In this document: positions 1 through 26,239 of the stretch, in pieces
Layout: every line of letters starts with the position of its first letter
Numbering within the stretch: the first letter of the stretch is position 1
IMG/VR virus record: IMGVR_UViG_2765235901_000002
Coordinates: 7,161 to 71,160 of that record
DNA from: a virus
Taxonomy: Duplodnaviria > Caudoviricetes
DNA length: 64,000 nucleotides
Reading direction: 5' to 3' (one strand)
Program-made: the position numbers and the translations under genes
The notes under the pieces: model-generated
Databases searched by the model: none
Seen by the model: the letters and a program-made list of their open reading frames with translations, nothing else
What the model was told of the DNA's origin: nothing

Positions 1-1
1 G

Positions 2-13303: not shown

Positions 13304-13500
13304 GCGTCGAACACGAGCATCAGTGCGAACGCACCATCGTGACGACAGTGCACGAGATCGACGGCCTGAAACGGCAACTGGCGGAGGCCCTCGCAGCGAT
13401 CGAAGGGGCACGGGAAGTATGCATGCCGCACCCGTTCCGAATACCACTCGCAGACTTCGCGTTACGTGGGGAAGTCCTGGCAGCATTGGAGATGTCATGA
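13300..13500 (+). CDS. hypothetical protein
   Basis: Coupled overlaps. Confidence 0.65.
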   Translation: MSVEHEHQCERTIVTTVHEIDGLKRQLAEALAAIEGAREVCMPHPFRIPLADFALRGEVLAALEMS

Positions 13501-14294: not shown

Positions 14295-14671
14295 GCGCGG
14301 CGGAGGCCCGTATTGCGGCCGCACTCGCAGAGCACCGTTTCCGGGAGCCCGAGCGTGTGTGCACCTGTGGTGTGCTGTGCGGTGTTGTGTGCGACAACCT
14401 GACGTATGCCGAGCACCTGGCGTCTGTGGTTGCTGCCCTACCCGACATCGCCGTGGTGGAGTTGCCGCTGGGGAATGTCCGCGAATACGGCGGATTCTCC
14501 TGGGGTGCCGACGAAGACGACGAAAACCCGACCGTCACTGCGACTGCTGGGTACGACACGGTCCGCCTGTATCAGGAAGACGCACGGCATACGAGTCAGG
14601 ACGCTGTGGAGATCGCGGGCTTCCTGCTCGCTGCTGCCAGGGCTGCTCGCACTGCGGGAGGCCAACAGTGA
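14291..14671 (+). CDS. hypothetical protein
   Basis: GTGA coupling; CTCG...HLA motif. Confidence 0.7.
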   Translation: MSAAEARIAAALAEHRFREPERVCTCGVLCGVVCDNLTYAEHLASVVAALPDIAVVELPLGNVREYGGFSWGADEDDENPTVTATAGYDTVRLYQEDARHTSQDAVEIAGFLLAAARAARTAGGQQ

Positions 14672-15075
14672 ACGGCGACAAGCTCAGGGTGCAGGTCGGC
14701 GACGTTATTCGGCAGGGCAGAGGCGACTACTCCCAGACCGTAATCATTGTCTGGACCAATCGGTCGTACGTCCCCGGTGCCACCACCGCGACGGCGACCG
14801 AGTTTGAGGCTCCAGCCGAGCGAGCCCACCCTGCCGATGCCATCTGCTTAGCGCCTCCCGTGGGTGACGGCCAATTCATGGGAACAGCGCTGTTGCCGAG
14901 CTTCATGACCTACTTGGGCTTCCTGAATTACACCGACGACGAGCAGACTGCTGCCGACGAAGCAGATGACGAGTACGCCGCACGGGATGGTCATACGTGG
15001 GAGGTCAACCTGCCAGGCTATGAGCACGTGGCCACGCCTTGGTGGGAGACGTTCCGTCAGGTGGATGCGGCATGA
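14668..15075 (+). CDS. hypothetical protein
   Basis: GTGA coupling. Confidence 0.65.
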   Translation: MNGDKLRVQVGDVIRQGRGDYSQTVIIVWTNRSYVPGATTATATEFEAPAERAHPADAICLAPPVGDGQFMGTALLPSFMTYLGFLNYTDDEQTAADEADDEYAARDGHTWEVNLPGYEHVATPWWETFRQVDAA

Positions 15076-15422
15076 CCCCGGGGGAGTTGGCGGCGATCGC
15101 AGCACGAGCGGACGCAGCGACGGTAGGTCCGTGGGAAGTCGCTACCAGCCGCGACGTGTATTCCGCTGTCATTGCACCGGCAGGCGGCGCAACGGTCGGC
15201 ATGGACTTCGAGAGTGACGCCAACGCCGAGTTCATTGCGCATGCCCGCGAGGATGTGCCGGCGTTGTTGGCTGTGCTGCGGGAACGGGACAACACCATCG
15301 CACGAGTACGGGATGTTCTCGACGACTACGACCACCTCGGTATCGAACCCATCCCGACGCTTTCGGCGCACGCGTGGATGCATGAGGTTCGCGCTGCCCT
15401 CGACCCACAGGAGACGGAATGA
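15072..15422 (+). CDS. Ead/Ea22-like protein
   Basis: ARADAAT.GPW...NAEFIAHAREDVPALLA. Confidence 0.75.
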   Translation: MTPGELAAIAARADAATVGPWEVATSRDVYSAVIAPAGGATVGMDFESDANAEFIAHAREDVPALLAVLRERDNTIARVRDVLDDYDHLGIEPIPTLSAHAWMHEVRAALDPQETE

Positions 15423-15631
15423 GTAACCCAGACCGTTGGTGCCCGAAATCGCTCACCGAGAAACTGTGCGCGCAGCAGGTGTTTGCACCAGACGCATTCA
15501 CTCGCAACGAGATAGGTCGCTTGGTGAACGTTCTCGCGCTGCACAGGCCGACGGGATCGAACGGTAAACACGGAAACCTGCACACGCCGACGTGCGGCTG
15601 CGAAGACGCTGAGTCGGGGGTGGTGTTGTGA
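15419..15631 (+). CDS. hypothetical protein
   Basis: Coupled; HRPTGSNGKHGNLHTPTCGC. Confidence 0.7.
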   Translation: MSNPDRWCPKSLTEKLCAQQVFAPDAFTRNEIGRLVNVLALHRPTGSNGKHGNLHTPTCGCEDAESGVVL

Positions 15632-15879
15632 GCGCAGTGAACCCCGTCGAGCATTGCGCGCACACCGAGGTATCGGTAGAGGTTCACGCCGAAGCCGCTG
15701 GCGTAGACGCTATCCGCCATGAGATCCGCAAGCGATGTGACTTATGCGGCCTCGTGTTAGCCGAACCCATTCACAACTACGGCTGCGACGAGTGGTGTAA
15801 CCACTGTCAGGTATGCGGCGAAGGAGCCCTGTACGGCTCGCGCTGCCATGACCATCCGATCGTCGGAGGTGCGCAGTGA
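15628..15879 (+). CDS. Cys-rich hypothetical protein
   Basis: Several CxxC pairs. Confidence 0.65.
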   Translation: MSAVNPVEHCAHTEVSVEVHAEAAGVDAIRHEIRKRCDLCGLVLAEPIHNYGCDEWCNHCQVCGEGALYGSRCHDHPIVGGAQ

Positions 15880-16139
15880 ACCCCACACACATCATCGCGG
15901 AGGCGCTGTTGGCTTTCGATGACGGAACAGCATACGAACTCGCCGCCCACGCGATGTCGAAGCTGACGGAACACGGCTACAGCATCATCCCCACGCCGCG
16001 CACAACCAGGTTCGGCCACGAGTTCATCGGAAGCGACCCGGAATGCTGCTGCGCTGGCATAGGTGCCGGCGAACTCTGCGGATACCCGATTTGGAAACAC
16101 ACCGCCTTCTCCATTGCCGCTGAGGGGGAGAAGGCATGA
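15876..16139 (+). CDS. hypothetical protein
   Basis: Coupled overlaps. Confidence 0.65.
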   Translation: MNPTHIIAEALLAFDDGTAYELAAHAMSKLTEHGYSIIPTPRTTRFGHEFIGSDPECCCAGIGAGELCGYPIWKHTAFSIAAEGEKA

Positions 16140-16300
16140 GCACGCTCGCCACGAACGGCATCTACCTCAACCACAGGTACGCGGTAGAACTCGCCGCGTC
16201 GATCGCAGCCGAAACCGGGGACCGAACACGAGTGCAGCAACTCCCCGGAAACCGGCGACTCTGGGAGATCGTCTGGGCTACCGATGGAGACGTGCGATGA
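16136..16300 (+). CDS. hypothetical protein
   Basis: MSTLATNGIY... 54 aa, ATGA-coupled on both sides; not in ORF track. Confidence 0.6.
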   Translation: MSTLATNGIYLNHRYAVELAASIAAETGDRTRVQQLPGNRRLWEIVWATDGDVR

Positions 16301-16458
16301 CCACTCATGAGCTCGAGGAGGACTTCTCCGCGCAACTCTCCCGCGGCGACAGTCGATGGTGGTGCTCCTGCGAGAAGTGGAGTACCCCGATCTGGCATAC
16401 GCCGCATGCGGTTCGGGAGCACGCGGGGCATGTGCGAGAAGTCGAGGGGGAGCAGTGA
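16297..16458 (+). CDS. hypothetical protein
   Basis: MTTHELEEDF...; coupled. Confidence 0.6.
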   Translation: MTTHELEEDFSAQLSRGDSRWWCSCEKWSTPIWHTPHAVREHAGHVREVEGEQ

Positions 16459-16724
16459 GCACCGACAGCTACGAATGGCGACCGTACATCTCGCCGATCG
16501 AACCGCAGCACGCCGACGAGGAAGCCGCCGAATGCATGGAACGGGAACGTATCCGCATCGCGGCAGAAACCCTCGGAGTCGATTTCGACGAACGGCATGT
16601 GACTGCAGCGACTTGGGATCTCGCCGGCTTCGAGGACGGCTACCACAACATGTGGCGAATCAAGCACGGCGTCGATTCGGATCTCGTTGCCCGGGTCGCC
16701 GATGTCGCGAGGTGGAACACATGA
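16455..16724 (+). CDS. hypothetical protein
   Basis: GTGA coupling. Confidence 0.65.
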   Translation: MSTDSYEWRPYISPIEPQHADEEAAECMERERIRIAAETLGVDFDERHVTAATWDLAGFEDGYHNMWRIKHGVDSDLVARVADVARWNT

Positions 16725-16897
16725 CCGGTGAGCAGTTGGTGGAGTGTCGTGGTCTTCATGGTGAGCGTATCGCTGTGACTGATGTGGAGTTGAACAAGGC
16801 GTGGTGGCGTGGGATGCCTGGCCGTCTCGCTGACCGTCGCCGGGCGTTGGGGTATCCGGTGGGCAGTCCTGAGCGTCGAATGTTGGAGGAATCATGA
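16721..16897 (+). CDS. hypothetical protein
   Basis: MTGEQLVECR...; coupled. Confidence 0.6.
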   Translation: MTGEQLVECRGLHGERIAVTDVELNKAWWRGMPGRLADRRRALGYPVGSPERRMLEES

Positions 16898-17148
16898 GCG
16901 ATCGTGCGTATGAGATTCACATCGCGGAGTTGTCGATTCGTCAGCGTGCTGTGCGGGAGGGGCGAGGGTTGTCGCGGATGGAACGCCAACACCTGGCGAA
17001 GCTCGCGGCGGAGGCGAAGGAGCTCGCGGACATGTTGGAGGCGGAACGCGCCGCCGACTACAGGCCCGCAACCGAATACCACCTTCCCGCACCAGCGTCC
17101 GATCCTGTCCGTCGCCGCAACGTAGGAGATTGGGGACCCGATGCCTGA
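16894..17148 (+). CDS. hypothetical protein
   Basis: Coupled overlaps. Confidence 0.65.
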   Translation: MSDRAYEIHIAELSIRQRAVREGRGLSRMERQHLAKLAAEAKELADMLEAERAADYRPATEYHLPAPASDPVRRRNVGDWGPDA

Positions 17149-17497
17149 AGTCTTTTCACCGGTCGCGATCGAGCAGAAGATCGCCGACGTATCGAACCGC
17201 ATCGCCACCGGTGTGAACCTCGCGGACGAGAAGTACCGGGCGTTCCTCGATGCGGACCGGGCCTACGATGCAGCGTTCGCGAAGGCGTACATGGCGTACT
17301 CCGGCCCCGCCCACGCGAAGAAGTACGCGGCCGAGCTCGACACCACCGACGAACGCGCCGCCCGCGACGTCGCTGACGCTGCATACCGGTACACAGACCG
17401 ACGTACCCGCGCCTACCAGGATGAGCTTCGGAGCCTTCAATCAATTGGGGCCTCGGTCCGCCAAGCATATTCAGTAGCAGGAAGGAACGAGACATGA
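17141..17497 (+). CDS. coiled-coil hypothetical protein
   Basis: Helical, Ala-rich; fits the operon. Confidence 0.75.
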   Translation: MPEVFSPVAIEQKIADVSNRIATGVNLADEKYRAFLDADRAYDAAFAKAYMAYSGPAHAKKYAAELDTTDERAARDVADAAYRYTDRRTRAYQDELRSLQSIGASVRQAYSVAGRNET

Positions 17498-17727
17498 GCA
17501 AATTGGCAGCCATGAAGACGAGTACTACGTACACGGGTCACGGTGCCCCTCACTCACACGAGTATGTCAACGGTGCGGAATGGTCGTCGTCTGTGGATGC
17601 GGGAGATGGTTCGGGGCCGCACCGCCACAAAGTGATCGACGGGAACGCGTACACCGATAGTGCCCGGTTGGAGGGCGGGATGATGCACAACCACCAGCTG
17701 CCCGTGATCGCAGAAGTGACGCAATGA
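17494..17727 (+). CDS. His-rich (HxH repeat) small protein
   Basis: PHSHEY, PHRHKV, MHNHQL spaced ~22-23 aa apart. Confidence 0.65.
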   Translation: MSKLAAMKTSTTYTGHGAPHSHEYVNGAEWSSSVDAGDGSGPHRHKVIDGNAYTDSARLEGGMMHNHQLPVIAEVTQ

Positions 17728-18326
17728 GTGTCTGGTTCTGCTCGGATCTTCACGTCGGGCATTTGAAGGTTGCGGAGACCCGGGGGTTCGATACTGCCGC
17801 CGAGCATGACGTGTCGATCTTCGCTTCCCTCGAGGAGACGTTGAAGCGTGGCGACCAGTTGTGGATCCTCGGCGATGTGACGGTCGGTGGGACTGGCGCG
17901 GAAACGCAGGCCCTGTCCCAGTTGGGCACGCTCGCCGAGATCCTGGGTGTCGAGCTGCATCTCATCGCAGGGAACCACGACTCGTGCCACCCGATGGCGA
18001 ACCGCAACAGTCACACCCGGCAGAGGGTGTTCCTCGAGGTGTTCTCGTCGGTGCAGTTGTTCGCTCGCCGGAAGATCGCTGGGCAGCCGGTTCTGCTGTC
18101 TCACTTTCCGTACGAGGGCGATCACTCCGAGACGGATCGTGGTGTGCAGTACCGCCTGCGGGATGAGGGGGAGTGGCTGCTGCACGGCCACACTCACAGC
18201 CAGGTGGCGATCGATGGGACCCGGCAGCTGCATGTGGGATGGGACGCATGGAGTCGACCTGTTCACCTAGATGAGATCGCGGACATCATCATCACCGCCG
18301 CGACCACGACGGAAGGCAACGCATGA
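17724..18326 (+). CDS. calcineurin-like metallophosphoesterase
   Basis: DLHVGH, GD, GNHD, HGHTH. Confidence 0.9.
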   Translation: MSVWFCSDLHVGHLKVAETRGFDTAAEHDVSIFASLEETLKRGDQLWILGDVTVGGTGAETQALSQLGTLAEILGVELHLIAGNHDSCHPMANRNSHTRQRVFLEVFSSVQLFARRKIAGQPVLLSHFPYEGDHSETDRGVQYRLRDEGEWLLHGHTHSQVAIDGTRQLHVGWDAWSRPVHLDEIADIIITAATTTEGNA

Positions 18327-18655
18327 CTATCATCGAGTTCCTGGAAGCGCGCCTCGCCGAGGATGAACAACTCGCTCACGAGTCGCACTCGATCCTTCTA
18401 CTGATCGGCAACGACACTCGTGTGCTCGTTGAGGGTTCCGATGAACGCAACACCTACCGGTTCATCGAGAGGTTCAATCCTGCCCGGGTGTTGCGTGAGG
18501 TAGCGGCGAAGCGAGCTCTCATCAAGTCGACAGTCAAGCGAATCGAGGAAGGTTGGGGCTACCACGACAACGAAGGCATCATCTGCGCTGATCTCCGACC
18601 GATGGCTGAGATCTACTCTGAGCATCCGGATTTCGCATCGATCGATTGGGAGTAG
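18323..18655 (+). CDS. DUF6221-like protein (copy A)
   Basis: EFLEARLAEDE...PARVLREVAAKR...Y.EHPDF. Confidence 0.8.
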   Translation: MTIIEFLEARLAEDEQLAHESHSILLLIGNDTRVLVEGSDERNTYRFIERFNPARVLREVAAKRALIKSTVKRIEEGWGYHDNEGIICADLRPMAEIYSEHPDFASIDWE

Positions 18656-18657
18656 CC

Positions 18658-19047
18658 ATGACCGAACTCAGACTGACTGCGGAGATCGTGGACCAGCTTT
18701 CGTTGGACTACAACAAGGCCCGGCGCGAGTCGGGTGTCAAGGAGTGGCAGTGTCTCACCGAGCGGCTGATCGAGGAGTACGTAGAGATTGAACGATTTCA
18801 GCCGTCGAAGACCTTCCCCTCTGCTGTGTATCGTTCTTCGCCGATTCGTCTGGCGACGGAACACCCGATCGATTTCTTGACGGACCGTCGCTCGCAAGTG
18901 CCGGAGGAGCGGTGGTCGCGTATCGAGGAGGCGACGTACCGACTGTCCAATGGGGTAATCACCGAATTGACGGTCAAGGCTGCGGTGAAGCCTTCGGTTG
19001 GGGAGTGGCGTGAAGTCGACACCGGAGTCGGGGGTTCTGGTGAGTAA
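18658..19047 (+). CDS. hypothetical protein
   Basis: MTELRLT... after GGGAG. Confidence 0.7.
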   Translation: MTELRLTAEIVDQLSLDYNKARRESGVKEWQCLTERLIEEYVEIERFQPSKTFPSAVYRSSPIRLATEHPIDFLTDRRSQVPEERWSRIEEATYRLSNGVITELTVKAAVKPSVGEWREVDTGVGGSGE

Positions 19048-19189
19048 GCGTGTGGAGCGTGCCCTGTTCCGTGGTGAGCTTCTGTCGGTGTTGCGTGAGC
19101 AGGTGGTGGTGTTGCGGCGTATTGCGGCGGTGATGGAACGGGATGCACTGGTGCAGGTGGATGTCGAGCGCGAATCGTCTGGTGGATGA
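19040..19189 (+). CDS. hypothetical protein
   Basis: GTG start overlapping the previous stop. Confidence 0.55.
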   Translation: MSKRVERALFRGELLSVLREQVVVLRRIAAVMERDALVQVDVERESSGG

Positions 19190-19191
19190 CG

Positions 19192-19208
19192 GTGTAATGC
19201 GTTACACT
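19192..19208 (+). promoter_or_regulatory. palindromic operator overlapping -10 of the Y RNA/Ro60 transcript
   Basis: GTGTAA-TGCG-TTACAC (19192-19207); TACACT at 19203-19208, 7 nt before the RNA 5' end. Confidence 0.6.
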
Positions 19209-19215
19209 CGGTGAT

Positions 19216-19345
19216 GAGAGCGGGCCGGAGCTGATCGGTTAACTCCTGCTAAGAGAGAGACCCGGGTTCAAATCCCGGCATCCTCCGGGATGTAGCTCAG
19301 TGGCCTAGAGCGCTTAACCCCGGTCGGCACAACACGCCCGCTCTC
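19216..19345 (+). ncRNA. yrlA: YrlA-like Y RNA with permuted tRNA-like domain
   Basis: Terminal stem GAGAGCGGGC/GCCCGCTCTC; T arm CCGGG-TTCAAAT-CCCGG precedes closed stem CATCC/GGATG and D arm GCTC-AGTGGCCTA-GAGC; no anticodon arm; adjacent to Ro60. Confidence 0.9.
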
Positions 19346-19360
19346 GCAGAACATCACGAT

Positions 19361-19430
19361 GTTGCGGGCCGGATTCCAGCCGGTTATCACTTGGGATGAT
19401 CACCCCGGTTGGAGATGACACGCCCGCAAC
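19361..19430 (+). ncRNA. second short Y RNA (YrlB-like)
   Basis: Stem GTTGCGGGC/GCCCGCAAC, inner TCCAGCCGG/CCGGTTGGA; shares GCGGGCCGGA...ACACGCCCGC with the first RNA. Confidence 0.75.
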
Positions 19431-19466
19431 CTTCGTTCTGCCCACCACCCTTTCCGGGAGCCGAGC

Positions 19467-21062
19467 ATGGACATCCTCACCACCGTCAACACGAAGCGCA
19501 CCTCCCAGGCAGAGCAGGCCGACTCCCGCCAGGCCCAGAACGCGGCCGGCGGATTCACCTTCACCGTCACCCCCGAGACCCGACTGCGCCGGTTCCTGAC
19601 CCTCGGCACCGACGGTGGCACGTTCTACACATCAGCTGCCGACCTAACAAAGGACAACGCCCAGGTCGTCCTCGACTTCGCCGCGAACAACACCGCCACC
19701 CTGGTGCGCGAAGTCGTGTCCATCTCTCAGGCCGGTCGTGCACCGAAGCAGAACCCCGCCTTGTTCGCCCTCGCAGCAGCAGCGTCCCTCGGTGACGATG
19801 ACGGCCGGAAGCTCGCACTCGCAGCCCTCCCCGATGTGGCACGTACCGGAACACATCTGTTTCTGTTCGCCCAGTATGTGGAGCAGTTCCGTGGGTGGGG
19901 CCGCGGCCTACGCCGAGCGGTCGGGAATTGGTATCTCGACAAGCCGACCGATGCTGTCGCGTATCAGGCGGTGAAATATCGGCAGCGTGAAGGATGGTCG
20001 CATCGAGACCTCCTGCGCCTCGCGCACCCGATCACCGATGACGCTGCCCGGAAGGCCCTGTTCGACTACATCGTCCGTGGATCCACTGATGGAGTCCCTC
20101 GTATCGTGGAGGGGTTCGAGAAGGCTCAGGCGAAGCCGCACAAGGCCGCGAAGTATGTCACCAAGTACGGGTTGTCGTGGGAGATGCTGCCCGATTCGGC
20201 ATTGAACGATCATGAGGTGTGGGAGGCGCTACTGGACAACGGTGTACCGCAGACCGCGTTGATCCGCCAGCTTCCGCGCCTGACTCGGATGGGCCTGTTG
20301 GATCCGATGGGAAGCCGCACCGCGTTGGTCGCTGCGCAACTCGCCGACCCCGAACGTCTACGGAAGGCCCGTGTCCATCCGATCAACGTGCTGGTGGCGC
20401 AACGCACCTACGCGTCCGGGCATTCAGCTCGAGGCGGAGCGGAATGGACCCCGTCACCTGCCATCGTCGATGCGTTGGATGCGGCGTTCTATGCGGCGTT
20501 CGGTGCGGTGGAGCCGTCGAACAAGCGGCACCTACTAGCCCTGGATGTGTCGGGGTCGATGATGTCCCCGATATCAGGTCTTCCGTTGTCGGCGCGTGAG
20601 GCATCCGCTGCGTTGGCGTTGGTGACTACAGCGACGGAGCCGGCCCACATGATCGTCGGATTCACCTCGAGCCGCACAGGATTCAGGTCAGGCACCGGGT
20701 TGACGCAACTCAACATCAGCCCCCGACGCCGCCTCGACGACGCAATCCGCGCCGTCAGCAACCTCCCGTTCGGTGGAACGGACTGCTCACTGCCGATCAT
20801 GGCCGCGCTGCAGCAGAACATCAAGGTCGACGTGTTCAGTGTGTACACCGACAACGAGACATGGGCTGGACCCATTCATCCGCATCAGGCGCTGCAGCAG
20901 TACCGGCGTGAGGTAAACCCGAACGCGAAGCTCGTCGTCGTCGGTATGACCGCCACCGAATTTTCGATAGCCGATTCGAATGATTCTGGAATGTTGGATG
21001 TCGCTGGGTTCGATTCGGCGACACCGTCGCTCCTGTCTGGGTTTGCTCGCGGTGACATCTGA
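19467..21062 (+). CDS. rsr: Ro60/Rsr TROVE-domain RNA-binding protein
   Basis: NAAGGFTF, RLRRFLTLGT.GGTFY, KYRQREGWSHRDLLRLAH, vWA MIDAS DVSGSM, TDNETW. Confidence 0.96.
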   Translation: MDILTTVNTKRTSQAEQADSRQAQNAAGGFTFTVTPETRLRRFLTLGTDGGTFYTSAADLTKDNAQVVLDFAANNTATLVREVVSISQAGRAPKQNPALFALAAAASLGDDDGRKLALAALPDVARTGTHLFLFAQYVEQFRGWGRGLRRAVGNWYLDKPTDAVAYQAVKYRQREGWSHRDLLRLAHPITDDAARKALFDYIVRGSTDGVPRIVEGFEKAQAKPHKAAKYVTKYGLSWEMLPDSALNDHEVWEALLDNGVPQTALIRQLPRLTRMGLLDPMGSRTALVAAQLADPERLRKARVHPINVLVAQRTYASGHSARGGAEWTPSPAIVDALDAAFYAAFGAVEPSNKRHLLALDVSGSMMSPISGLPLSAREASAALALVTTATEPAHMIVGFTSSRTGFRSGTGLTQLNISPRRRLDDAIRAVSNLPFGGTDCSLPIMAALQQNIKVDVFSVYTDNETWAGPIHPHQALQQYRREVNPNAKLVVVGMTATEFSIADSNDSGMLDVAGFDSATPSLLSGFARGDI

Positions 21063-21267
21063 CGCTCGCGCTCAGCAGGCGCGTGAGCATCACCGGCAAA
21101 GCCAGGAAGCGGAGTCGACCGCTGAGCAGCATCGCCTGGTGCGGAATCAGTTGGTGCGGTCGTTACGGGCTGATGACCCGGAACGGTGGACGTACAAGGC
21201 GCTCGCTGCCGCAGTCGGGTGCACCCCTGAGCTTGTAGCAGCCATCGTCAAAAACCGAGTCCCATAG
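21052..21267 (+). CDS. small HTH protein
   Basis: WTYKALAAAVGCTPELVAAIV; GTG overlaps the Ro60 end. Confidence 0.7.
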   Translation: MTSDARAQQAREHHRQSQEAESTAEQHRLVRNQLVRSLRADDPERWTYKALAAAVGCTPELVAAIVKNRVP

Positions 21268-21294
21268 GCCCGGATTCCGAAAAGGGAGCACAGC

Positions 21295-21699
21295 ATGACT
21301 TACGTGAAACCGCAGGTCCGCATCGCAGCCGTACTCGGGAAGCACTACGCGGTCTCATTCGGGTTGTGTTTGTGCGGATGGCGAACGACCCGCACGAAAA
21401 TCGGCGAATCCTGGCGTCCTGAGTTCGACGAACACCAGGCCGAATTGGTTGCTGCCCTCCCCGATATCGAGATCGTTCCGGCTGGCACCAGCACGGCGAT
21501 GGGTGCGTTCGCCGCCGGTTCGGTCACGAAGCAGCGTGTGCTCGAGGACATCGCCTACGTGCTCACCGGCTGGCGTTACGAGGAGCCTGAGGACACGTGG
21601 GCCGCTGTCGCTGCCATCGCGAAGGGCATGGGCAACGGCGCGCTGGTAGCCGAGATCGAGAAAAGCTACACCGCCGATGAGGTGCGCACCGATGGTTGA
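21295..21699 (+). CDS. hypothetical protein
   Basis: RBS AGGGAG; CLCG. Confidence 0.7.
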   Translation: MTYVKPQVRIAAVLGKHYAVSFGLCLCGWRTTRTKIGESWRPEFDEHQAELVAALPDIEIVPAGTSTAMGAFAAGSVTKQRVLEDIAYVLTGWRYEEPEDTWAAVAAIAKGMGNGALVAEIEKSYTADEVRTDG

Positions 21700-21859
21700 T
21701 CGCCTCGAAGCTGAGTTACGTGAACTGGAGCGCACCGATCCGGATGTAGCCGATGCCGCTGCCCGCCTCGAAGCGCTACCTGACTATCTCGCGCGCACCG
21801 AGCGGTGGCAGGAAGCGCGCCGCAAGGTACGCGCTGCGGCTGAGGAGGAAAAGCGATGA
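21692..21859 (+). CDS. hypothetical protein
   Basis: MVDRLEAELRELE... Confidence 0.65.
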   Translation: MVDRLEAELRELERTDPDVADAAARLEALPDYLARTERWQEARRKVRAAAEEEKR

Positions 21860-22152
21860 GCGCGTCGGGGCGAACACTACCGCCGTTCCCCACCGACGAC
21901 GTGACACTGCACATGCTCGAAAGAGCCATCGACACCACTGCGGATGCACGTGACAACGGTGAGTTCACGCTGCCGCAGCTGCTCGACTTTCTGGCAAATT
22001 ACGACCCTGCCCGTTCCGTCGACACTGGCGACCGGATCGACGGAATCCCGGTGTTCGACCATCCTGACCAGATTTACAGCGAGAGTGACGTTATCCGGTC
22101 TCTGATCGCTACCGTTCGAGGCCTTCGCGCCAATGAAAGCGAGAAGCTATGA
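21856..22152 (+). CDS. hypothetical protein
   Basis: RBS GAGGAGG; coupled. Confidence 0.7.
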   Translation: MSASGRTLPPFPTDDVTLHMLERAIDTTADARDNGEFTLPQLLDFLANYDPARSVDTGDRIDGIPVFDHPDQIYSESDVIRSLIATVRGLRANESEKL

Positions 22153-22700
22153 GGAAGATTCCGACCCTGTTCGTCCGCGACTCTGAGGATCGCGCACATG
22201 TGCTGGCTGAGGTGAACCCTGAATGCCAGTGGGTGATTGACGGTGAAGGTGTGGCGACCCGGAAGTGGGACGGCACTTGCACTCGCCTTGATGAGTCGGG
22301 GGAGTGGTGGGCTCGCCGTGAGGTGAAGCCCGGCAAGCAGCCGCCCCCGAATTGGGTTGAGGAAGAGGCCGATCCGGTCACGGGGAAGCGTGTTGGTTGG
22401 GAGCCGATGGCGCAGTCAGCGTTCGCGAAGTTCCATGCCGAGGCGCTGCACTCGTGGACGGGTCTACGGGCAACAGCCGGCACCTACGAGCTTGTCGGCC
22501 CGAAGATCAACGGCAACCCCGAAGGCCACGCGACGCACCTACTGATGCCGCACGGTACCGACCTACTGCTCTCGTCGCCACGGGACTTCGCCGGCCTCCG
22601 CGAGTGGATGGCGGGATGGTCGGACGACAATCTTGAGGGGGTTGTGTGGTGGCATCCTGATGGTCGCCGAGCGAAGCTGAAGGTGAAGGACTTCCGATGA
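22149..22700 (+). CDS. ATP-dependent RNA ligase-like nucleotidyltransferase (DUF5565-like)
   Basis: Motif I RKWDG, TYELVG (III), EGVVW (IV), AKLK (V). Confidence 0.75.
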   Translation: MRKIPTLFVRDSEDRAHVLAEVNPECQWVIDGEGVATRKWDGTCTRLDESGEWWARREVKPGKQPPPNWVEEEADPVTGKRVGWEPMAQSAFAKFHAEALHSWTGLRATAGTYELVGPKINGNPEGHATHLLMPHGTDLLLSSPRDFAGLREWMAGWSDDNLEGVVWWHPDGRRAKLKVKDFR

Positions 22701-23095
22701 ACGTGGCCGATTTTCTGGAAGCCCGCCTAGCTGAGGATGAAACCATCGCGTGGGAGGCAGTGACGGTTGACGGCCAACGCTGGGTCACGGATGGCCCGTT
22801 CGGAACTCCCGAGTTCTACCACGTGCAAGGTGGCTACATTGAGCCTGTCGCCGTCAGTTTGGCGAAGTCTGCTGCTGTTCATGTAGCCCGTCATGATCCC
22901 GCCTGGGTATTGCGTGATATCGCGGCAAAACGGGATGCGATTACTGCCGCCCGGCGAGTACTCGAAGCCCCAGTGAACGGTGAGCTTCCCGAGGCACCGC
23001 GGCTTGCTGAGCAAATGCTGTGCGCTCTCGCTGGCGCTTATTCCGACCATGATGACTTCGAGCCGGAGTGGTTGAGGATCGTGAAGTACGGATGA
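22697..23095 (+). CDS. DUF6221-like protein (copy B)
   Basis: DFLEARLAEDE...HVARHDPAWVLRDIAAKR...YSDHDDF. Confidence 0.8.
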   Translation: MNVADFLEARLAEDETIAWEAVTVDGQRWVTDGPFGTPEFYHVQGGYIEPVAVSLAKSAAVHVARHDPAWVLRDIAAKRDAITAARRVLEAPVNGELPEAPRLAEQMLCALAGAYSDHDDFEPEWLRIVKYG

Positions 23096-23207
23096 TTGGA
23101 AACGTGACTGATTTTCGGCCATGACCTGCGATGTCGCGCTTCCTTAGTGACGCTAACGAGTGTATGATCGAACGTGTTCACCTGCCCGGCAACAGGAGTC
23201 GTGACAC

Positions 23208-23972
23208 ATGACCGTTCAAGACCGCGCAGACCACATGTATCTTTCCCGCGAAGAACAGCGGGAGTTCATGAACCTGATGGTGAAACTGCAGTGGGTGGTG
23301 GAGGAGCTCGACGTAACCCTCACTCGGCAGTCCCAGTTCGGGAGTAAGTACGAGACGGGTAAGTCGACGGAGACACCGGTGGTGTTCCACGAGACAGCAT
23401 CTGAGATTGCGTACGAACTGCACGGCACGGTCAGCGTCTGGGTGAATGAGGTGTGCACGCAACGTGGCCTGGAGTTTCCGGGTGTGGATCGGACAGGAAG
23501 GATGGCGCGCTGGTTGTGGCAGCACGTCATCGACCTTGCGTTGATCGAGGAAGCCGCGACGGCCCTCGATGAGATCCGGCACGCCCTGAAGCGGGCAGAA
23601 CATGTCGTCGACCGACCACTGGGCCGCATCTACGTCGGACCGTGCGGCACCGACTCGGACACCGGCCGTTGCGCCGCCGACCTGTATGCGACACCACTGA
23701 AAGCTGAAGTGCAATGCAAGATCTGCGGTGCCACCCACGAGGTCGAGAAACGACGGGAGGCATTGCGGCAGGAAGTGAGAGGGCTTCTCGGCACCGCGGT
23801 GGAACTCTCTCGGATGCTGCCGTGGATTCTGGATTCACCGGTGCGAGAGAACACGATCCGGCAGTGGGCGAAACGGAAACGCCTCGTCGCTCACACTGTG
23901 GATGGCACAGGTCGACCGATGTACAGGGTCGGGGATGTCATCGACCTCCATGTGTTGGCGAAGGCAGGGTGA
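23208..23972 (+). CDS. Zn-finger/HTH protein, probable late-gene regulator
   Basis: GPC...C..DL, CKICG, C-terminal ENTIRQWAKR...YRVGDV; last early-arm gene before the late promoter. Confidence 0.65.
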   Translation: MTVQDRADHMYLSREEQREFMNLMVKLQWVVEELDVTLTRQSQFGSKYETGKSTETPVVFHETASEIAYELHGTVSVWVNEVCTQRGLEFPGVDRTGRMARWLWQHVIDLALIEEAATALDEIRHALKRAEHVVDRPLGRIYVGPCGTDSDTGRCAADLYATPLKAEVQCKICGATHEVEKRREALRQEVRGLLGTAVELSRMLPWILDSPVRENTIRQWAKRKRLVAHTVDGTGRPMYRVGDVIDLHVLAKAG

Positions 23973-23992
23973 CACGCCGATCTTCCCGCTAC

Positions 23993-24026
23993 TTGACAGG
24001 ACTGTCACGCCGCCATCTGTTAGGCT
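23993..24026 (+). promoter_or_regulatory. candidate late promoter
   Basis: TTGACA at 23993-23998 and extended -10 TGT-TAGGCT at 24018-24026 (spacing too long for a single canonical pair). Confidence 0.45.
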
Positions 24027-24035
24027 TTAGCCGTT

Positions 24036-24069
24036 AGGCGTGGTTGATCCCCTGGGTCCCACGCTTTTT
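24036..24069 (+). terminator. intrinsic terminator-like hairpin
   Basis: GCGTGG..GATCC-CCT-GGGTC-CCACGC followed by TTTTT. Confidence 0.55.
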
Positions 24070-24170
24070 CTGATTCTTGGGGTGGTTGTGGCTTCCCCAC
24101 CACCATGGTCCCGCACCTCTCCTCGGCTAAGCGGGCACGCCACCCCAACCAACTTCGCGGAGATGCACAG

Positions 24171-24377
24171 ATGCCGAACGTGATGCAAGAGTTGAAGTCT
24201 GCAACTGAATGCCGAGCAGCGGCCCTCGGGCTCTTGGCCGCTGCCGACCAGTCCGACGACCGCGTGACGCGTGACTACCTTGTCGCCGCCGCGCAGGTGT
24301 ACGCCATCTTGGCGACCTCGGCAGAGACGATCTATTCGGTCACGCCGTCGCCGACATCAACCAAACCAGGAGCCTGA
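24171..24377 (+). CDS. hypothetical protein
   Basis: MPNVMQELK after GGAG. Confidence 0.6.
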   Translation: MPNVMQELKSATECRAAALGLLAAADQSDDRVTRDYLVAAAQVYAILATSAETIYSVTPSPTSTKPGA

Positions 24378-24378
24378 C

Positions 24379-24477
24379 ATGCTGTTCGGATATCCGTTCT
24401 CGACGTACCTGTCGGTGGCCAAGGCGATCATCGGCATCGCTGGCCTGATCATTCCGCTGCTGTCCCTGTTTTCATGA
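24379..24477 (+). CDS. small hydrophobic peptide
   Basis: RBS AGGAG; MLFGYPFSTYLSVAKAIIGIAGLIIPLLSLFS. Confidence 0.55.
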   Translation: MLFGYPFSTYLSVAKAIIGIAGLIIPLLSLFS

Positions 24478-24734
24478 TCGGGCCGTCGGCAACACTGTCC
24501 GGTGCGCATGCCGATCCACTGACCGACCAGTCGGAGTGGACGGAGCTGGTCGATGTCTCGCAGATCCCGTACGAGATGAAGGTTGCGATGCTCGAGGCAT
24601 GCGCATCGGCATCCCGCGCGGTCACCGCCATCTGCGGCATCGACCCCGAGCCGTTCGTGACCGAGATGTGCGACATCGCTGCGCAGTCCATGGACGACGC
24701 GGGTGTCCTGCCGATGGACAGCCGAGACCTGTGA
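24474..24734 (+). CDS. hypothetical protein
   Basis: Coupled overlaps. Confidence 0.6.
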   Translation: MIGPSATLSGAHADPLTDQSEWTELVDVSQIPYEMKVAMLEACASASRAVTAICGIDPEPFVTEMCDIAAQSMDDAGVLPMDSRDL

Positions 24735-25021
24735 GTGACCCGAACGAGACTCTGCAGCAGGCGATCACCCGCACCCTGGATCCTGATCGGCCGCAGCCGC
24801 CGTACCCGACCACCGAACATCACACAGTCAAAGCCCTCGCGAAAGACCTCAACGGCCTGGCGTTCGGTGAGCAGGACTGGCACCAGAACTTCCGCACCGC
24901 CGACCCCTACTACGGCAACCTCGCCCAAGCCATCTTGAATGCGCAGGCCGGGTGGGTGTTCGACATGGCATCTCATGTGTGGGTGACGAAGCAGGAACGT
25001 GATGCCCGATCTGTGGGCTGA
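24731..25021 (+). CDS. hypothetical protein
   Basis: GTGA coupling. Confidence 0.6.
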   Translation: MSDPNETLQQAITRTLDPDRPQPPYPTTEHHTVKALAKDLNGLAFGEQDWHQNFRTADPYYGNLAQAILNAQAGWVFDMASHVWVTKQERDARSVG

Positions 25022-25075
25022 GCTGGTCGCCCGTGTGGTGCGTTGGTGGATGCTCCGACCGTAGGGGGTTCCGTG

Positions 25076-25219
25076 ATGCCGTCATTGGAGCAGCAGATCG
25101 AGGACGCGTACCTGTTGATGTTGGGTGCACGTGAGCGCGGTGACGTAGACGCTGAGTTCGTACAGACCGAACGCGTGAACAATCTCCTCGCCCGCTACCC
25201 AAACAGTTCACGCTTCTGA
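25076..25219 (+). CDS. small hypothetical protein
   Basis: MPSLEQQIEDAYLLMLGARERGD...; not in ORF track. Confidence 0.6.
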   Translation: MPSLEQQIEDAYLLMLGARERGDVDAEFVQTERVNNLLARYPNSSRF

Positions 25220-25275
25220 CCAGCGCAAAGGCAACATCGCTCACGGGCGGGTAAGCAACCCGAGAGGCAACGCAC

Positions 25276-25560
25276 GTGGCACTCACACCTGAACAGATCG
25301 CAGCCGACGAAGCCATCGAAGCTGCTATCGAACAGGCCCGCATCGCATACGGCGAAGACGACCCAGACAGCGGCAAGATCATCACAGCCTGGTACGTCGT
25401 CGCGAAGGCTAGCTATTTCGACGATGACCAGGACTTGGTCGCATGGTCGTTCTTCAAGCGAAGCACCATGGACATCGGTGACAGTCAAGGCATCCTCCGT
25501 GTCGCCACCATCCGCGAAGACGGCATCACGAACTCCGTCATATACGGAGACGAAGACTGA
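25276..25560 (+). CDS. hypothetical protein
   Basis: RBS GAGAGG; acidic protein. Confidence 0.7.
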   Translation: MALTPEQIAADEAIEAAIEQARIAYGEDDPDSGKIITAWYVVAKASYFDDDQDLVAWSFFKRSTMDIGDSQGILRVATIREDGITNSVIYGDED

Positions 25561-25724
25561 TGACCGTTGGCGACATCCATGTCGTACCTGTCAACGACCT
25601 GATCGAGCACCTCGACGACGACTGCCCCTGCGGCGCAACCACCGAACCGGTACCACGCGACGACGGCTCCGTCGGCTGGCTCATCACCCATCACAGTCTC
25701 GATGGCCGAGAGCTGCACGAGTAA
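25560..25724 (+). CDS. small hypothetical protein
   Basis: MTVGDIHVVPVNDLIEH...CPCG...HHSLDGRE; coupled on both sides; not in ORF track. Confidence 0.7.
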   Translation: MTVGDIHVVPVNDLIEHLDDDCPCGATTEPVPRDDGSVGWLITHHSLDGRELHE

Positions 25725-26074
25725 TGGCCCGCGCGACCCTCAAGGTGTGCCGCATCCACGGGTGCCCACACATGCAAGCCGGCCCACTATGCCGAGACCA
25801 CCTGCGAGAGCAGGAACGCCACCAACGCGCCACCGTCCCCACCAAGATCCACGAACCGGCCGACAGAGCGAGACGTAAAGCCGCAGTCGAAGCCCACCGA
25901 GCTATCAACGGTGAATGGTGTCCGGGCATAGGCAGACCAGCCCACACACTCACACCACGCGATGGCGGCCTCACCGCCAACCACATCACCCCCATCGCGC
26001 TCGGCGGCTCACCCACAGGACCACTGGCAGTCACCTGCCGATCCTGCAACTCACGCCAAGCAGCCCGCTTCTGA
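25724..26074 (+). CDS. terminase-associated HNH endonuclease
   Basis: KVC..HGCP, TANHITPIALGG...CRSCNSRQ. Confidence 0.85.
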   Translation: MARATLKVCRIHGCPHMQAGPLCRDHLREQERHQRATVPTKIHEPADRARRKAAVEAHRAINGEWCPGIGRPAHTLTPRDGGLTANHITPIALGGSPTGPLAVTCRSCNSRQAARF

Positions 26075-26177
26075 AACCCCTGACCACATAGGGGTGGGGA
26101 GTACCACCCACACGGGGGGCCACCACGTTTGGCCGCGGGGGAGGGCGCTCGTAGGTCTGTCAGGTTCTAACAACTTC

Positions 26178-26227
26178 GAGTCGGTGCGATGCCGGCTCCA
26201 TTTCCGAGCGGGGCGCGATGCCTCGGA
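26178..26227 (+). promoter_or_regulatory. tandem GCGAU-loop hairpins upstream of terS
   Basis: GAGTCGGT-GCGAT-GCCGGCTC and GGGGC-GCGAT-GCCTC. Confidence 0.55.
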
Positions 26228-26239
26228 TGGAGTGTCGAT

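What the first reader, a model, noticed from the sequence alone, without database searches (positions are those of the whole stretch)
17724..22700. Candidate RNA repair or tRNA-protection system: phosphoesterase, Y RNAs, Ro60 and an ATP-dependent ligase instead of RtcB
Seen: within 5 kb on one strand lie a calcineurin-like phosphoesterase, two Y RNAs, Ro60 and a compact KxDG nucleotidyltransferase with motifs I, III, IV and V; no RtcB is in the window. Known: bacterial Ro60-Yrl loci often neighbour RtcB, which joins 2',3'-cyclic-P to 5'-OH ends, while ATP-dependent ligases need 3'-OH and 5'-P ends. Inference: Ro60/Y RNA captures nicked RNAs, the phosphoesterase heals 3' ends and the ligase seals them, countering host tRNA-cleaving defences. 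Caveats: no 5'-kinase was found in the window, and six genes separate Ro60 from the ligase... four small unrelated-looking ORFs plus the HTH intervene, so the linkage may be chance.
Basis: partly seen in the sequence, partly recalled or inferred. Interest (0 to 1): 0.8.

Follow-up and report, generated by a model that had tools for sequence, protein, structure and literature searches.

The report
Phage Ro60 cassette beside unlinked RNA ligase
A prophage of an actinobacterium carries a known Ro60/Y-RNA cassette, a small RNA ligase and a common phosphoesterase close together, but in other phages these genes almost never travel together, so they look like separate accessory genes and not one repair machine.

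Summary
All listed parts are real. They are a metallophosphoesterase (17724-18326), two Y RNAs (19216-19346 and 19360-19431), Ro60 (19467-21062) and a 183-aa RLIG1/DUF5565-family RNA ligase with an intact KxDG lysine (22149-22700). The provirus record has no RtcB.

- **Ligase loci:** 0 of 29 have Ro60 or the phosphoesterase within the fetched flanks (6-10 kb).
- **Ro60-bearing viral records:** 1 of 80 has the ligase, 6 kb away among replication genes.
- **Ligase-bearing viral records:** 1 of 8 has Ro60, about 50 kb away. So do 0 of 5 isolated ligase phages tested.
- **Closest Ro60 phages:** BearBQ, Cashline and Sparky lack both the ligase and the phosphoesterase.

Similarity to Cashline and BearBQ stops at the edges of a cassette of Y1, Y2, Ro60 and an HTH gene (about 19190-21267). 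This is the known actinophage Ro60/YrlA/YrlB arrangement. Missing RtcB is normal for phage Ro60: only 2 of 40 records have it.

The ligase belongs to a large family (1573 clusters at 50% identity), and published work shows that homologues join tRNA halves. I read the region as three independent accessory modules. Each is a new member of a known kind.

The parts
17724..18326 (+). Calcineurin-like metallophosphoesterase, 200 aa. A generic phage phosphoesterase of unknown substrate.
   Evidence: Pfam Metallophos and Metallophos_2. PHROG 547. Homologues in 585 of 50,697 phage records, including T5-like phages and many actinophages, variously annotated as metallophosphoesterase, Mre11 or Ser/Thr phosphatase. 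Weak NCBIfam likeness to PdeM, 35.7 bits against a cut-off of 150. No PDB sequence match.
18323..18655 (+). DUF6221 protein, 110 aa. Its start overlaps the phosphoesterase stop.
   Evidence: Pfam DUF6221 64.9 bits. 28% identical to the second DUF6221 at 22697-23095.
18646..19047 (+). ORF of 133 aa, no known family.
   Evidence: No Pfam, PHROG or NCBIfam match. No usable Atlas hit.
19216..19346 (+). Y RNA 1. YrlA-like, with a long terminal Ro-binding stem plus T-arm-like and D-arm-like hairpins.
   Evidence: Partial YrlA match (28.1 bits) and ceN72-3/ceN74-2 match (26.5 bits). Fold z -3.9. 88% identical in BearBQ with compensatory changes. Model R1 finds 79 matches, and 93% of cells pair against 33-43% in slid controls.
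19360..19431 (+). Y RNA 2. A short YrlB-like hairpin with the same GCGGGCCGGA / ACACGCCCGC stem as Y1.
   Evidence: ceN72-3/ceN74-2 match 19.1 bits. Fold z -4.1. 91% identical in BearBQ. Hit by the Y1-derived model at 24.3 bits, E 0.0047.
19467..21062 (+). Ro60 (Rsr) orthologue, 531 aa.
   Evidence: TROVE 173 bits plus vWA_Ro60 200 bits. PHROG 850. NCBIfam Rsr 543 bits, below the 900 equivalog cut-off. 77% identical to Ro of Gordonia phages Cashline and BearBQ.
21052..21267 (+). Small HTH-type protein, 71 aa from the GTG at 21052. It overlaps the Ro60 stop and is the last gene of the Ro60 cassette.
   Evidence: 76% identical over 71 of 71 residues to BearBQ gp42 'helix-turn-helix DNA binding domain protein', which overlaps Ro60 in the same way. 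Cashline has a gene of the same size at that place.
21295..22152 (+). Three small ORFs of unknown function: 134 aa at 21295-21699, 60 aa at 21677-21859 and 98 aa at 21856-22152 (PHROG 7643).
   Evidence: Atlas gave nothing usable for the 134-aa ORF. None recurs beside Ro60 or the ligase in other loci.
22149..22700 (+). Compact RLIG1/DUF5565-family ATP-dependent 5'-P/3'-OH RNA ligase, 183 aa.
   Evidence: Pfam RLIG1. PHROG 14301. PDB 9c6l 'RNA ligase1', E 1.5e-12 for the single sequence and 7.9e-22 for the profile. K39 aligns with the Lys that is Met in 9c6m. Catalytic residues are invariant. 3881 near-length homologues and 1573 clusters at 50% identity.
22697..23095 (+). Second DUF6221 protein, 132 aa. 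Its start overlaps the ligase stop.
   Evidence: Pfam DUF6221 79.4 bits. Not a conserved partner: it is the only DUF6221 match among 54 ORFs (the window's own plus 53 downstream ORFs from 32 other ligase loci).

Best explanation
The stretch holds three independent accessory modules inside a long co-directional early-gene array of a temperate actinobacterial phage. They do not form one system.

1. **Ro60 cassette, about 19190-21267.** It is self-contained: a YrlA-like and a YrlB-like Y RNA in the leader of Ro60, then a small HTH gene overlapping the Ro60 stop. The Y RNAs are probably cut out of the Ro60 transcript and bound by Ro60 through their shared GGGCCGGA stem. The RNP then acts on structured or damaged RNA. 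That last step is inferred from bacterial Ro60 work.
2. **Stand-alone RLIG1-family ligase.** Lys39 is adenylylated by ATP, AMP passes to an RNA 5'-phosphate, and the 3'-OH attacks to seal the nick. The likely targets are tRNA anticodon-loop breaks that already carry 5'-P/3'-OH ends, so no healing enzyme would be needed (inference).
3. **Generic metallophosphoesterase** of a family spread through many unrelated phages. Its substrate is unknown.

**Shown:** the identities, the catalytic residues, the RNA structure and its conservation, the mosaic boundaries, and the lack of co-occurrence. **Inferred:** all biochemical roles in this phage.
For: **Cassette boundaries**
- Nucleotide similarity to Cashline covers only window 19192-21092.
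- BearBQ shares both Y RNAs, Ro60 (77%) and the HTH (76%), in the same order with the same overlap. There they lie next to the integrase and immunity repressor. Cashline shares Ro60 (77%), two Y-RNA-like elements just upstream and a same-size downstream gene.
- The complete genomes of BearBQ, Cashline and Sparky have no ligase (0 of 3) and no phosphoesterase homologue (0 of 3).

**Y RNAs travel with Ro60**
- The model finds them in 45 of 79 IMG/VR Ro60 loci, plus Cashline, Sparky and the TROVE locus of G086.
- It finds them in 0 of 29 ligase loci.
- 42 of 43 pairs show changes on both sides.

**The ligase travels alone**
- 0 of 29 loci (8 viral, 19 bacterial, 2 isolates) have Ro60 or the phosphoesterase within the fetched flanks of 6-10 kb.
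- No neighbour family recurs across 30 loci.
- Apart from the window's own DUF6221, which recurs in none of 32 other ligase loci, no Pfam family matched more than one of the 53 downstream ORFs scanned.
- Longer homologues carry no extra Pfam domain.

**Whole records**
- Ligase in 1 of 80 Ro60 records.
- TROVE in 1 of 8 ligase records, about 50 kb away.
- TROVE in 0 of 5 isolated ligase phages.

**Published biochemistry**
- RLIG1 homologues, bacterial and viral ones included, ligate 5'-P/3'-OH tRNA halves (PMC11494293, passages).
Against: - Three viruses (this provirus, G038/L053 and G086) do carry both Ro60 and the ligase. Both genes are rare in phages overall: 357 and 25 of 50,697 records. 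Against all phages this is more than chance. I could not make a background matched for host phylum and genome size.
- Phosphoesterase homologues lie within 10 kb of Ro60 in 4 of 80 loci. They occur in about 1% of phage records.
- Phage Ro60 does sit among RNA-repair genes elsewhere: RlaP in 10, DHHA1 in 8 and HAD_SAK_2 in 6 of 80 loci. A repair setting for Ro60 is therefore plausible in general.
- The scans return only the nearest relatives found by peptide patterns. They are not a census.
Confidence: 0.75

Rival explanations
1. Ro60/Y RNA captures cleaved tRNAs, the metallophosphoesterase removes 2',3'-cyclic or 3'-phosphates, and the RLIG1 ligase seals, as one dedicated anti-defence pathway that stands in for RtcB.
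For: - All three genes lie within 5 kb on one strand.
- Calcineurin-type phosphoesterases and ATP-grasp ligases are named as RNA-repair parts in jumbo phages, and ROT/TROVE is called a repair platform (PMC7824862, passages).
- L053 has the ligase 6 kb from Ro60.
- 4 of 80 Ro60 loci have a phosphoesterase homologue within 10 kb.
Against: - Co-occurrence is absent in nearly all relatives.
- The Ro60 cassette is a mosaic unit whose edges exclude both enzymes.
- No 5'-kinase was found. Only the AAA_33 profile was searched.
- In L053 the ligase sits with DnaB and RusA. TPR, glycosyltransferase and methyltransferase genes separate it from Ro60.
- Phage Ro60 rarely has RtcB, so there is nothing to replace (2 of 40).
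- The phosphoesterase's nearest named likeness is to DNA-repair-type enzymes: PdeM weakly, and relatives annotated Mre11.
Confidence: 0.07
2. A loose toolkit. The genes are separately acquired and separately mobile, but in this phage they act in the same physiological process of keeping tRNA and rRNA usable during infection or lysogeny. They may act together with the SpoU-type RNA methyltransferase and the DSP-type phosphatase about 19 kb upstream of Ro60. No physical complex or fixed gene order is involved.
For: - One 71-kb provirus carries five RNA-directed or possibly RNA-directed accessory genes: SpoU, DSPc, the phosphoesterase, Ro60 with its Y RNAs, and the ligase.
- Three viruses have both Ro60 and the ligase somewhere in the genome.
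- Phage Ro60 neighbourhoods elsewhere hold other repair enzymes.
Against: - SpoU and DSPc occur in none of the Ro60 or ligase loci fetched.
- The three co-occurrences may simply reflect a shared host phylum.
- No substrate is known for the phosphoesterase or DSPc.
- The idea is hard to tell apart from independence by sequence alone.
Confidence: 0.15
3. The phosphoesterase and the 'ligase' serve DNA, not RNA, for example end processing and nick sealing during replication or recombination.
For: - Relatives of the phosphoesterase are annotated Mre11, and there is a weak PdeM likeness.
- In L053 the ligase lies beside DnaB and RusA.
- In NTR1 and Agent47 a helicase and a Holliday-junction resolvase lie 2-5 kb upstream of the ligase.
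Against: - The RLIG1 family specifically joins RNA with 5'-P/3'-OH ends in vitro (abstract of PMC11494293).
- Pfam, PHROG and PDB all place the protein in that family.
Confidence: 0.03

Closest known systems
Ro60 (Rsr) with YrlA and YrlB Y RNAs of Mycobacterium smegmatis and mycobacteriophages (Chen et al. 2014, PMC4201824; passages read)
   Same: - Ro60 orthologue with TROVE and vWA domains.
- One tRNA-like Y RNA and one short hairpin Y RNA encoded just upstream on the same strand.
- Shared 5' stem motif resembling GGUCCGA.
- The paper reports such RNAs near Ro60 in 254 bacteria and 22 phages.
   Different: - The Rfam YrlA model reaches only 28 bits, against a gathering score of 69.
- Here a small HTH gene overlaps the Ro60 stop and moves with the cassette.
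- Expression and Ro binding are not shown for this phage.
RLIG1 / C12orf29 RNA ligase family, Pfam PF17720; Yasminevirus RLIG1 structures 9c6l and 9c6m (PMC11494293; passages read)
   Same: - KxDG lysine and two catalytic glutamates, at Pfam profile positions about 195 and 250.
- C-terminal KxK.
- The paper shows 5'-P/3'-OH RNA ligation, including tRNA halves, by bacterial and viral homologues. It predicts that viral RLIG1 counters host immunity as T4 Rnl1 does.
   Different: - 183 aa, against 277 aa for Yasminevirus and a Pfam profile length of 324.
- The Pfam match covers only residues 111-178.
- Activity of this protein is untested.
- I could not see the paper's Fig. S3 or which homologues were active.
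Phage T4 Pnk + Rnl1 tRNA healing and sealing (as described in PMC11494293)
   Same: An ATP-dependent lysine-adenylate RNA ligase in a phage, which could in principle reverse anticodon-nuclease attack.
   Different: - No polynucleotide kinase was found in the provirus record (AAA_33 profile only).
- The phosphoesterase is of another superfamily than the Pnk phosphatase (recalled).
- No conserved ligase partner exists.
Salmonella rsr-yrlBA-rtcBA RNA repair operon (PMC7790460; search listing and abstract only)
   Same: Ro60 and Y RNAs in the neighbourhood of an RNA ligase gene.
   Different: - No RtcB, RtcA or RtcR here (RtcB tested).
- The ligase needs opposite end chemistry.
- Ro60 and the ligase are not a conserved pair.
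Phage Ro60 neighbourhoods with RlaP, DHH/DHHA1 and 'Swiss Army Knife' HAD phosphatase
   Same: Ro60 with Y RNAs set among accessory RNA-metabolism genes of phages.
   Different: None of these three families was found within about 5 kb of Ro60 in the window. Here the nearby enzymes are a calcineurin-like phosphoesterase and an RLIG1 ligase.

Membership tests
Ro60 / TROVE (Rsr) | TROVE domain followed by the Ro60-type vWA domain | tested here: met
   PF05731 173.3 bits (cut-off 23) and PF25045 199.6 bits (cut-off 27.7).
Ro60 / TROVE (Rsr) | NCBIfam equivalog score for bacterial Rsr (NF041674, cut-off 900) | tested here: not met
   543.4 bits over the full length, below the cut-off. It is a diverged phage orthologue, not an equivalog by that rule.
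Ro60 / TROVE (Rsr) | A Y RNA encoded nearby on the same strand (criteria of Chen et al. 2014, in passages seen) | tested here: met
   Y1 ends 120 nt and Y2 ends 35 nt before the Ro60 start.
YrlA (Rfam RF02553) | Score at or above the family's gathering score of 69 bits | tested here: not met
   28.1 bits, model positions 28-81 only. No match at gathering score in the window or in 10 related loci.
YrlA (Rfam RF02553) | Terminal Ro-binding stem plus a tRNA-like module (T-arm and D-arm hairpins), supported by covariation | tested here: met
   Fold. T-arm and D-arm matched to the YrlA consensus. 93% of cells pair, and 42 of 43 pairs change on both sides over 71 distinct sequences, against 33-43% paired in slid controls. 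The alignment was fitted to the model, which favours the structure.
Y RNA, functional | The RNA is expressed and bound by Ro60 | not testable with these tools
   No RNA run holds the stretch. This is no evidence either way.
RLIG1 / DUF5565 RNA ligase (PF17720) | Pfam gathering score | tested here: met
   40.4 bits against 25, but only residues 111-178 are matched. The full length matches PHROG 14301 and 9c6l.
RLIG1 / DUF5565 RNA ligase (PF17720) | KxDG nucleotidyl-lysine, ATP-binding Glu and Mg-binding Glu (human K57, E195, E250 per PMC11494293) | tested here: met
   K39-W-D41-G42 aligns with the Lys that is Met in 9c6m. E114 and E163 fall at profile positions about 195 and 250. All are invariant in 16 sequences. 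K39, E114 and E163 are at least 90% conserved and G42 is invariant in 46 sequences.
RLIG1 / DUF5565 RNA ligase (PF17720) | ATP-dependent joining of RNA 5'-P to 3'-OH | not testable with these tools
   Needs an enzyme assay. Shown for other homologues in PMC11494293.
RLIG1 / DUF5565 RNA ligase (PF17720) | ATP-grasp-like RNA ligase fold | not tested
Only sequence-to-PDB matches are available.
Calcineurin-like metallophosphoesterase | Pfam score and metal-binding motifs DxH, GD, GNH(D/E), GHxH | tested here: met
   PF00149 39.7 bits and PF12850 38.6 bits. SDLHVGH, LGDV, GNHD and HGHTH are seen in the translation. The motif names are recalled.
RNA end-healing phosphoesterase (2',3'-cyclic or 3'-phosphate removal) | Activity on RNA 3' ends, or conserved linkage to an RNA ligase or kinase | tested here: not met
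   The linkage part was tested. 0 of 29 ligase loci have a homologue within the fetched flanks of 6-10 kb. Activity is not testable here.
Rtc-type Ro60 repair operon (rsr-yrl-rtcBA) | RtcB ligase in the same element | tested here: not met
   No PF01139 match in the 71,160-base provirus record. The control rang in 10 of 14 genomes.
T4-type healing and sealing (Pnk + ligase) | Polynucleotide 5'-kinase | tested here: not met
   No AAA_33 (PF13671) match at E up to 0.1 in the record. Other kinase families were not searched.
   1 of 80, 1 of 8, 0 of 5, 0 of 3 and 0 of 29. No matched background was computed.

The most novel reading that the evidence does not exclude
In a minority of actinobacterial phages (this provirus, G038 and G086) the Ro60-Y RNA particle and the compact RLIG1 ligase work together in trans. 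The tRNA-like module of the Y RNA would either present broken tRNAs to the ligase or be itself a nicked-and-resealed decoy for anticodon nucleases. The metallophosphoesterase would act as an optional end-healer. That would make a modular phage RNA-repair kit built from freely exchangeable parts, with no fixed operon.
Probability: 0.1. Interest if true: 0.7.

Novelty: new member of a known kind. Interest (0 to 1): 0.25.

Why it matters
If the three genes were one system, it would be the first Ro60-centred repair pathway built on a 5'-P/3'-OH ligase, and it would give phage Ro60 a function. The evidence instead points to ordinary phage mosaicism. The known Ro60/Y-RNA cassette has landed near two unrelated accessory genes.

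Three useful by-products remain.
- **A delimited cassette:** the mobile unit of Y1, Y2, Ro60 and HTH is shared with culturable Gordonia phages (BearBQ, Cashline). The still unknown role of phage Ro60 could be tested by deletion there.
- **A specific Y RNA model:** it finds Y RNAs next to Ro60 in 45 of 79 viral loci, where Rfam's YrlA threshold finds none.
- **The ligase family:** the roughly 180-aa RLIG1 form is a large, stand-alone family in Actinobacteria and their phages, with no fixed healing partner. This fits direct sealing of 5'-P/3'-OH breaks.

Tried and rejected
- **Rfam at gathering score.** Nothing in the window. In 10 related Ro60 loci it found only tRNA hits. I therefore built my own model.
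- **tRNA scan.** None in the window.
- **PDB sequence search with the phosphoesterase.** No match.
- **Conserved neighbours of the ligase.** None over 30 loci.
- **Downstream ORFs of the ligase.** No Pfam family matched more than one of the 54 ORFs scanned, so none recurs across loci.
- **Domain fusions in longer ligase homologues.** No extra Pfam domain in 10 of 10.
- **SpoU and DSPc as toolkit partners.** Absent from all fetched Ro60 and ligase loci.
- **Intervening ORFs.** The Atlas gave no usable hit for the 133-aa ORF. For the 134-aa ORF it gave only low-score leads from a poor model, pLDDT 0.54.
- **Promoter and terminator scan of 14000-26500.** 0 promoter-like sites and 3 terminator-like sites, all on the minus strand and fewer than in shuffles. 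It says nothing about transcription units.
- **Expression.** No RNA holder is listed for the stretch. The one DNA holder may be the source sample.
- **L046 'phosphoesterase' ORF.** It matched the window protein by tblastn (E 1e-10), but it gave no Pfam family at E 0.001. The count of 4 of 80 is therefore generous.
- **Burroughs and Aravind 2016** (cited in PMC7824862 for ROT/TROVE repair systems) is not held. I know it only through that citation.
- **Supplements were not seen.** The supplements of PMC11494293 (Fig. S3, the list of viral homologues) and of PMC4201824 (tables of phage Y RNAs) may already list relatives of this locus.
- **Recalled, from no call:** VapC/PIN nucleases leave 5'-P/3'-OH ends; Clostridium thermocellum Pnkp uses a calcineurin-type phosphoesterase; the ceN72-3/ceN74-2 sRNAs are stem-bulge Y-RNA homologues.

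Full report
**What is there**

The window is bases 7161-71160 of a 71,160-base IMG/VR provirus record. Window positions 1 to about 26,000 appear to be a co-directional + strand array of early genes. They include a RecA-like AAA_24 ATPase, C5 and N6/N4 DNA methylases, a replication initiator and many small ORFs.

Inside this array, the genes run in this order:

| Position | Gene |
|---|---|
| 17724-18326 | calcineurin-like metallophosphoesterase |
| 18323-18655 | DUF6221 protein |
| 18646-19047 | ORF of 133 aa |
| 19048-19466 | 419-nt gap |
| 19467-21062 | Ro60 |
| 21052-21267 | 71-aa HTH-type gene overlapping the Ro60 stop |
| 21295-22152 | three small ORFs |
| 22149-22700 | 183-aa RLIG1-family ligase |
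| 22697-23095 | second DUF6221 protein |

Four ORFs separate Ro60 from the ligase, not six.

**The Y RNAs are real**

Rfam gives nothing at gathering score. In E-value mode, 19259-19311 matches the T-arm and D-arm part of YrlA (28.1 bits, E 7e-4, gathering 69). The whole of 19216-19344 and of 19360-19430 match the nematode ceN72-3/ceN74-2 sRNA family (26.5 and 19.1 bits). I recall these sRNAs as stem-bulge Y-RNA homologues.

Both elements fold into a long terminal stem with an internal loop. Their z-scores are -3.9 and -4.1, and 0 of 200 shuffles fold as well. They share the stem strands GCGGGCCGGA and ACACGCCCGC. Gordonia phage BearBQ has both, at 88% and 91% identity, with compensatory changes in the terminal and acceptor-like stems.

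I built a covariance model from the two Y1 copies.
- It gave 79 matches at E up to 0.01 in 81 sources. The sources were the window, BearBQ and 79 IMG/VR Ro60 loci.
- All matches are on the Ro60 strand, and nearly all lie just upstream of Ro60.
- 45 of the 79 IMG/VR loci have at least one match, and several have two to four in tandem.
- On that alignment 93% of cells form standard pairs, against 33-43% when partners are slid. 42 of 43 pairs show changes on both sides. The alignment is fitted to the model, which favours the structure.
- As a control, the model found nothing in 29 ligase loci. It did find elements upstream of Ro60 in Cashline and Sparky, and beside the TROVE gene of G086.

This is the arrangement published for M. 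smegmatis and mycobacteriophages: YrlA plus YrlB upstream of Rsr, and YrlA-like RNAs near Ro60 in 254 bacteria and 22 phages (PMC4201824, passages).

**The Ro60 cassette is a mosaic unit**

Megablast of 17724-22700 against 50,697 phage records hit one record, Cashline. The match covers only query 1469-3369, which is window 19192-21092. Ro60 is 77% identical to the Ro proteins of Cashline and BearBQ. The HTH protein is 76% identical over 71 of 71 residues to BearBQ gp42, which overlaps Ro60 in the same way.

In both Gordonia phages the cassette lies beside the integrase and immunity repressor, with no phosphoesterase or ligase nearby. The complete genomes of BearBQ, Cashline and Sparky contain neither: 0 of 3 for each. 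The cassette therefore moves without its present neighbours.

**The ligase**

- It reaches the Pfam RLIG1 threshold (40.4 against 25 bits), though only residues 111-178 are matched. It matches PHROG 14301 'RNA ligase' end to end.
- Its best PDB relative is 9c6l 'RNA ligase1', E 1.5e-12 alone and 7.9e-22 as a profile. K39 of KWDG aligns with the lysine that is methionine in 9c6m.
- K39, D41, G42, E114, K119, E163, G164, K176 and K178 are invariant in 16 homologues.
- The family is large. There are 3881 near-length homologues, almost all listed ones carrying PF17720, with Actinobacteria among the named sources. There are 1573 clusters at 50% identity, mostly of 180-200 aa.
- Ten longer forms show no added Pfam domain.
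- Hu et al. 2024 (PMC11494293, passages) show that RLIG1 and several bacterial and viral homologues join 5'-P/3'-OH tRNA halves. They predict that viral RLIG1 counters host immunity as T4 Rnl1 does.
- SEA-PHAGES records already call the mycobacteriophage homologues 'RNA ligase'.
- Iyer et al. 2021 mention rare divergent ATP-grasp ligases of actinophages that lie outside the Rnl1 and Rnl2 families.

**The phosphoesterase**

It has homologues in 585 of 50,697 phage records. These include T5-like Salmonella and Escherichia phages and many actinophages, and they are annotated in several different ways. Its best NCBIfam likeness is a weak one to PdeM, the ligase-associated DNA damage response endonuclease (35.7 against 150 bits). 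Nothing ties it to RNA ends.

**Co-occurrence**

| Set examined | Result |
|---|---|
| 8 viral ligase loci, ±10 kb | 0 with Ro60, 0 with the phosphoesterase |
| 19 bacterial ligase loci, ±10 kb | 0 with Ro60, 0 with the phosphoesterase |
| NTR1 and Agent47 ligase loci, ±6-8 kb | 0 with either |
| 80 viral Ro60 loci, ±10 kb | 1 with the ligase (L053), 4 with a phosphoesterase homologue |
| 80 whole Ro60 records | 1 with the ligase; 1 of 28 among those at least 90% complete |
| 8 whole ligase records | 1 with TROVE (G086: ligase at about 62.2-62.7 kb, TROVE at about 12.3-12.5 kb) |
| 5 isolated ligase phages (NTR1, Agent47, phi10:1, FLC1-1B, Thyatira) | 0 with TROVE |
| First 40 of the 80 Ro60 records | 2 with RtcB, both over 400 kb |

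In L053 the ligase sits next to DnaB and RusA. TPR, glycosyltransferase and methyltransferase genes lie between it and Ro60. No neighbour family recurs around the ligase.

The recurrent neighbours of phage Ro60 are clusters found in 10, 8 and 6 of 80 loci. One representative of each was scanned, and they scored as RlaP, DHHA1 and HAD_SAK_2. L046 adds another RlaP.

**Reading**

The best-supported account is three independent accessory modules. For how the ligase works, I propose direct sealing of breaks that already have 5'-P and 3'-OH ends. This fits the lack of any kinase and of any conserved healing partner. It is an inference. The end chemistry of PIN/VapC nucleases is recalled, not checked.

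The function of the Ro60 particle in a phage remains unknown. By analogy with bacteria, it would handle structured or damaged RNA, with the Y RNA acting as gate and tether (PMC4201824).

A looser 'same process, separate genes' reading keeps some weight for two reasons. Three viruses have both Ro60 and the ligase. This provirus also has a SpoU-type RNA methyltransferase and a DSP-type phosphatase.

**Limits**

- The locus scans return the nearest relatives found by peptide patterns. They are not a census.
- No background matched for host phylum and genome size was computed.
- Many IMG/VR records are fragments.
- No RNA data exist for the stretch.
- Supplementary files of the papers were not available.

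Noticed in passing
window 1-241 (gene starts upstream, at G000 6940) and window 477-1010: A SpoU-type RNA 2'-O-methyltransferase (PF00588, 70.9 bits) is followed by a dual-specificity phosphatase domain protein (DSPc, 42.5 bits). Neither occurs in any Ro60 or ligase locus fetched.
   Followed up: partly
window 18323-18655 and 22697-23095: Two DUF6221 paralogues (28% identical) each follow an enzyme gene, the phosphoesterase and the ligase, with a 4-nt start/stop overlap. The pairing with the ligase is not conserved elsewhere (none of 32 other loci). DUF6221 homologues also lie about 0.4-0.8 kb upstream of Ro60 in L018, L019 and L021.
   Followed up: partly
L025, L071, L038, L095, L024, L054, L032, L018/L019, just upstream of Ro60: Tandem arrays of three or four Y-RNA-like elements precede Ro60 in several viral contigs. 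Some phages therefore carry more Y RNA copies than the two seen here.
   Followed up: no
L020 9652-9721: Rfam calls a 'tRNA' at just above gathering score (29.8 bits). It lies inside a Y RNA match at 9648-9785. The tRNA-like module of YrlA can be mis-annotated as a tRNA gene.
   Followed up: partly
L025 12017-13144, L046 12573-13364, L063 13346-14212, L063 6552-7382: The recurrent neighbours of phage Ro60 are RlaP nucleotidyltransferase (cluster in 10 of 80 loci), a DHHA1-domain protein (8 of 80) and a 'Swiss Army Knife' HAD phosphatase (6 of 80). One representative of each cluster was scanned.
   Followed up: partly
L122 (Mycobacterium phage Sparky) 3994-4552 and 4609-4838: Four annotated tRNA genes lie directly upstream of two Y-RNA-like elements and Ro60.
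   Followed up: no
L001 (BearBQ) and L121 (Cashline): In these Gordonia phages the Ro60 cassette sits between the tail/lysis genes and the integrase, on the same strand as the immunity repressor. Prophage-expressed genes are often found at such a place (recalled). Lysogenic expression was not tested.
   Followed up: no
window 13104-14294: A 396-aa ORF in the early-gene array matches PHROG 102 'endolysin' (E 2.4e-28, residues 138-391), far from the structural genes. It was not examined further.
   Followed up: no
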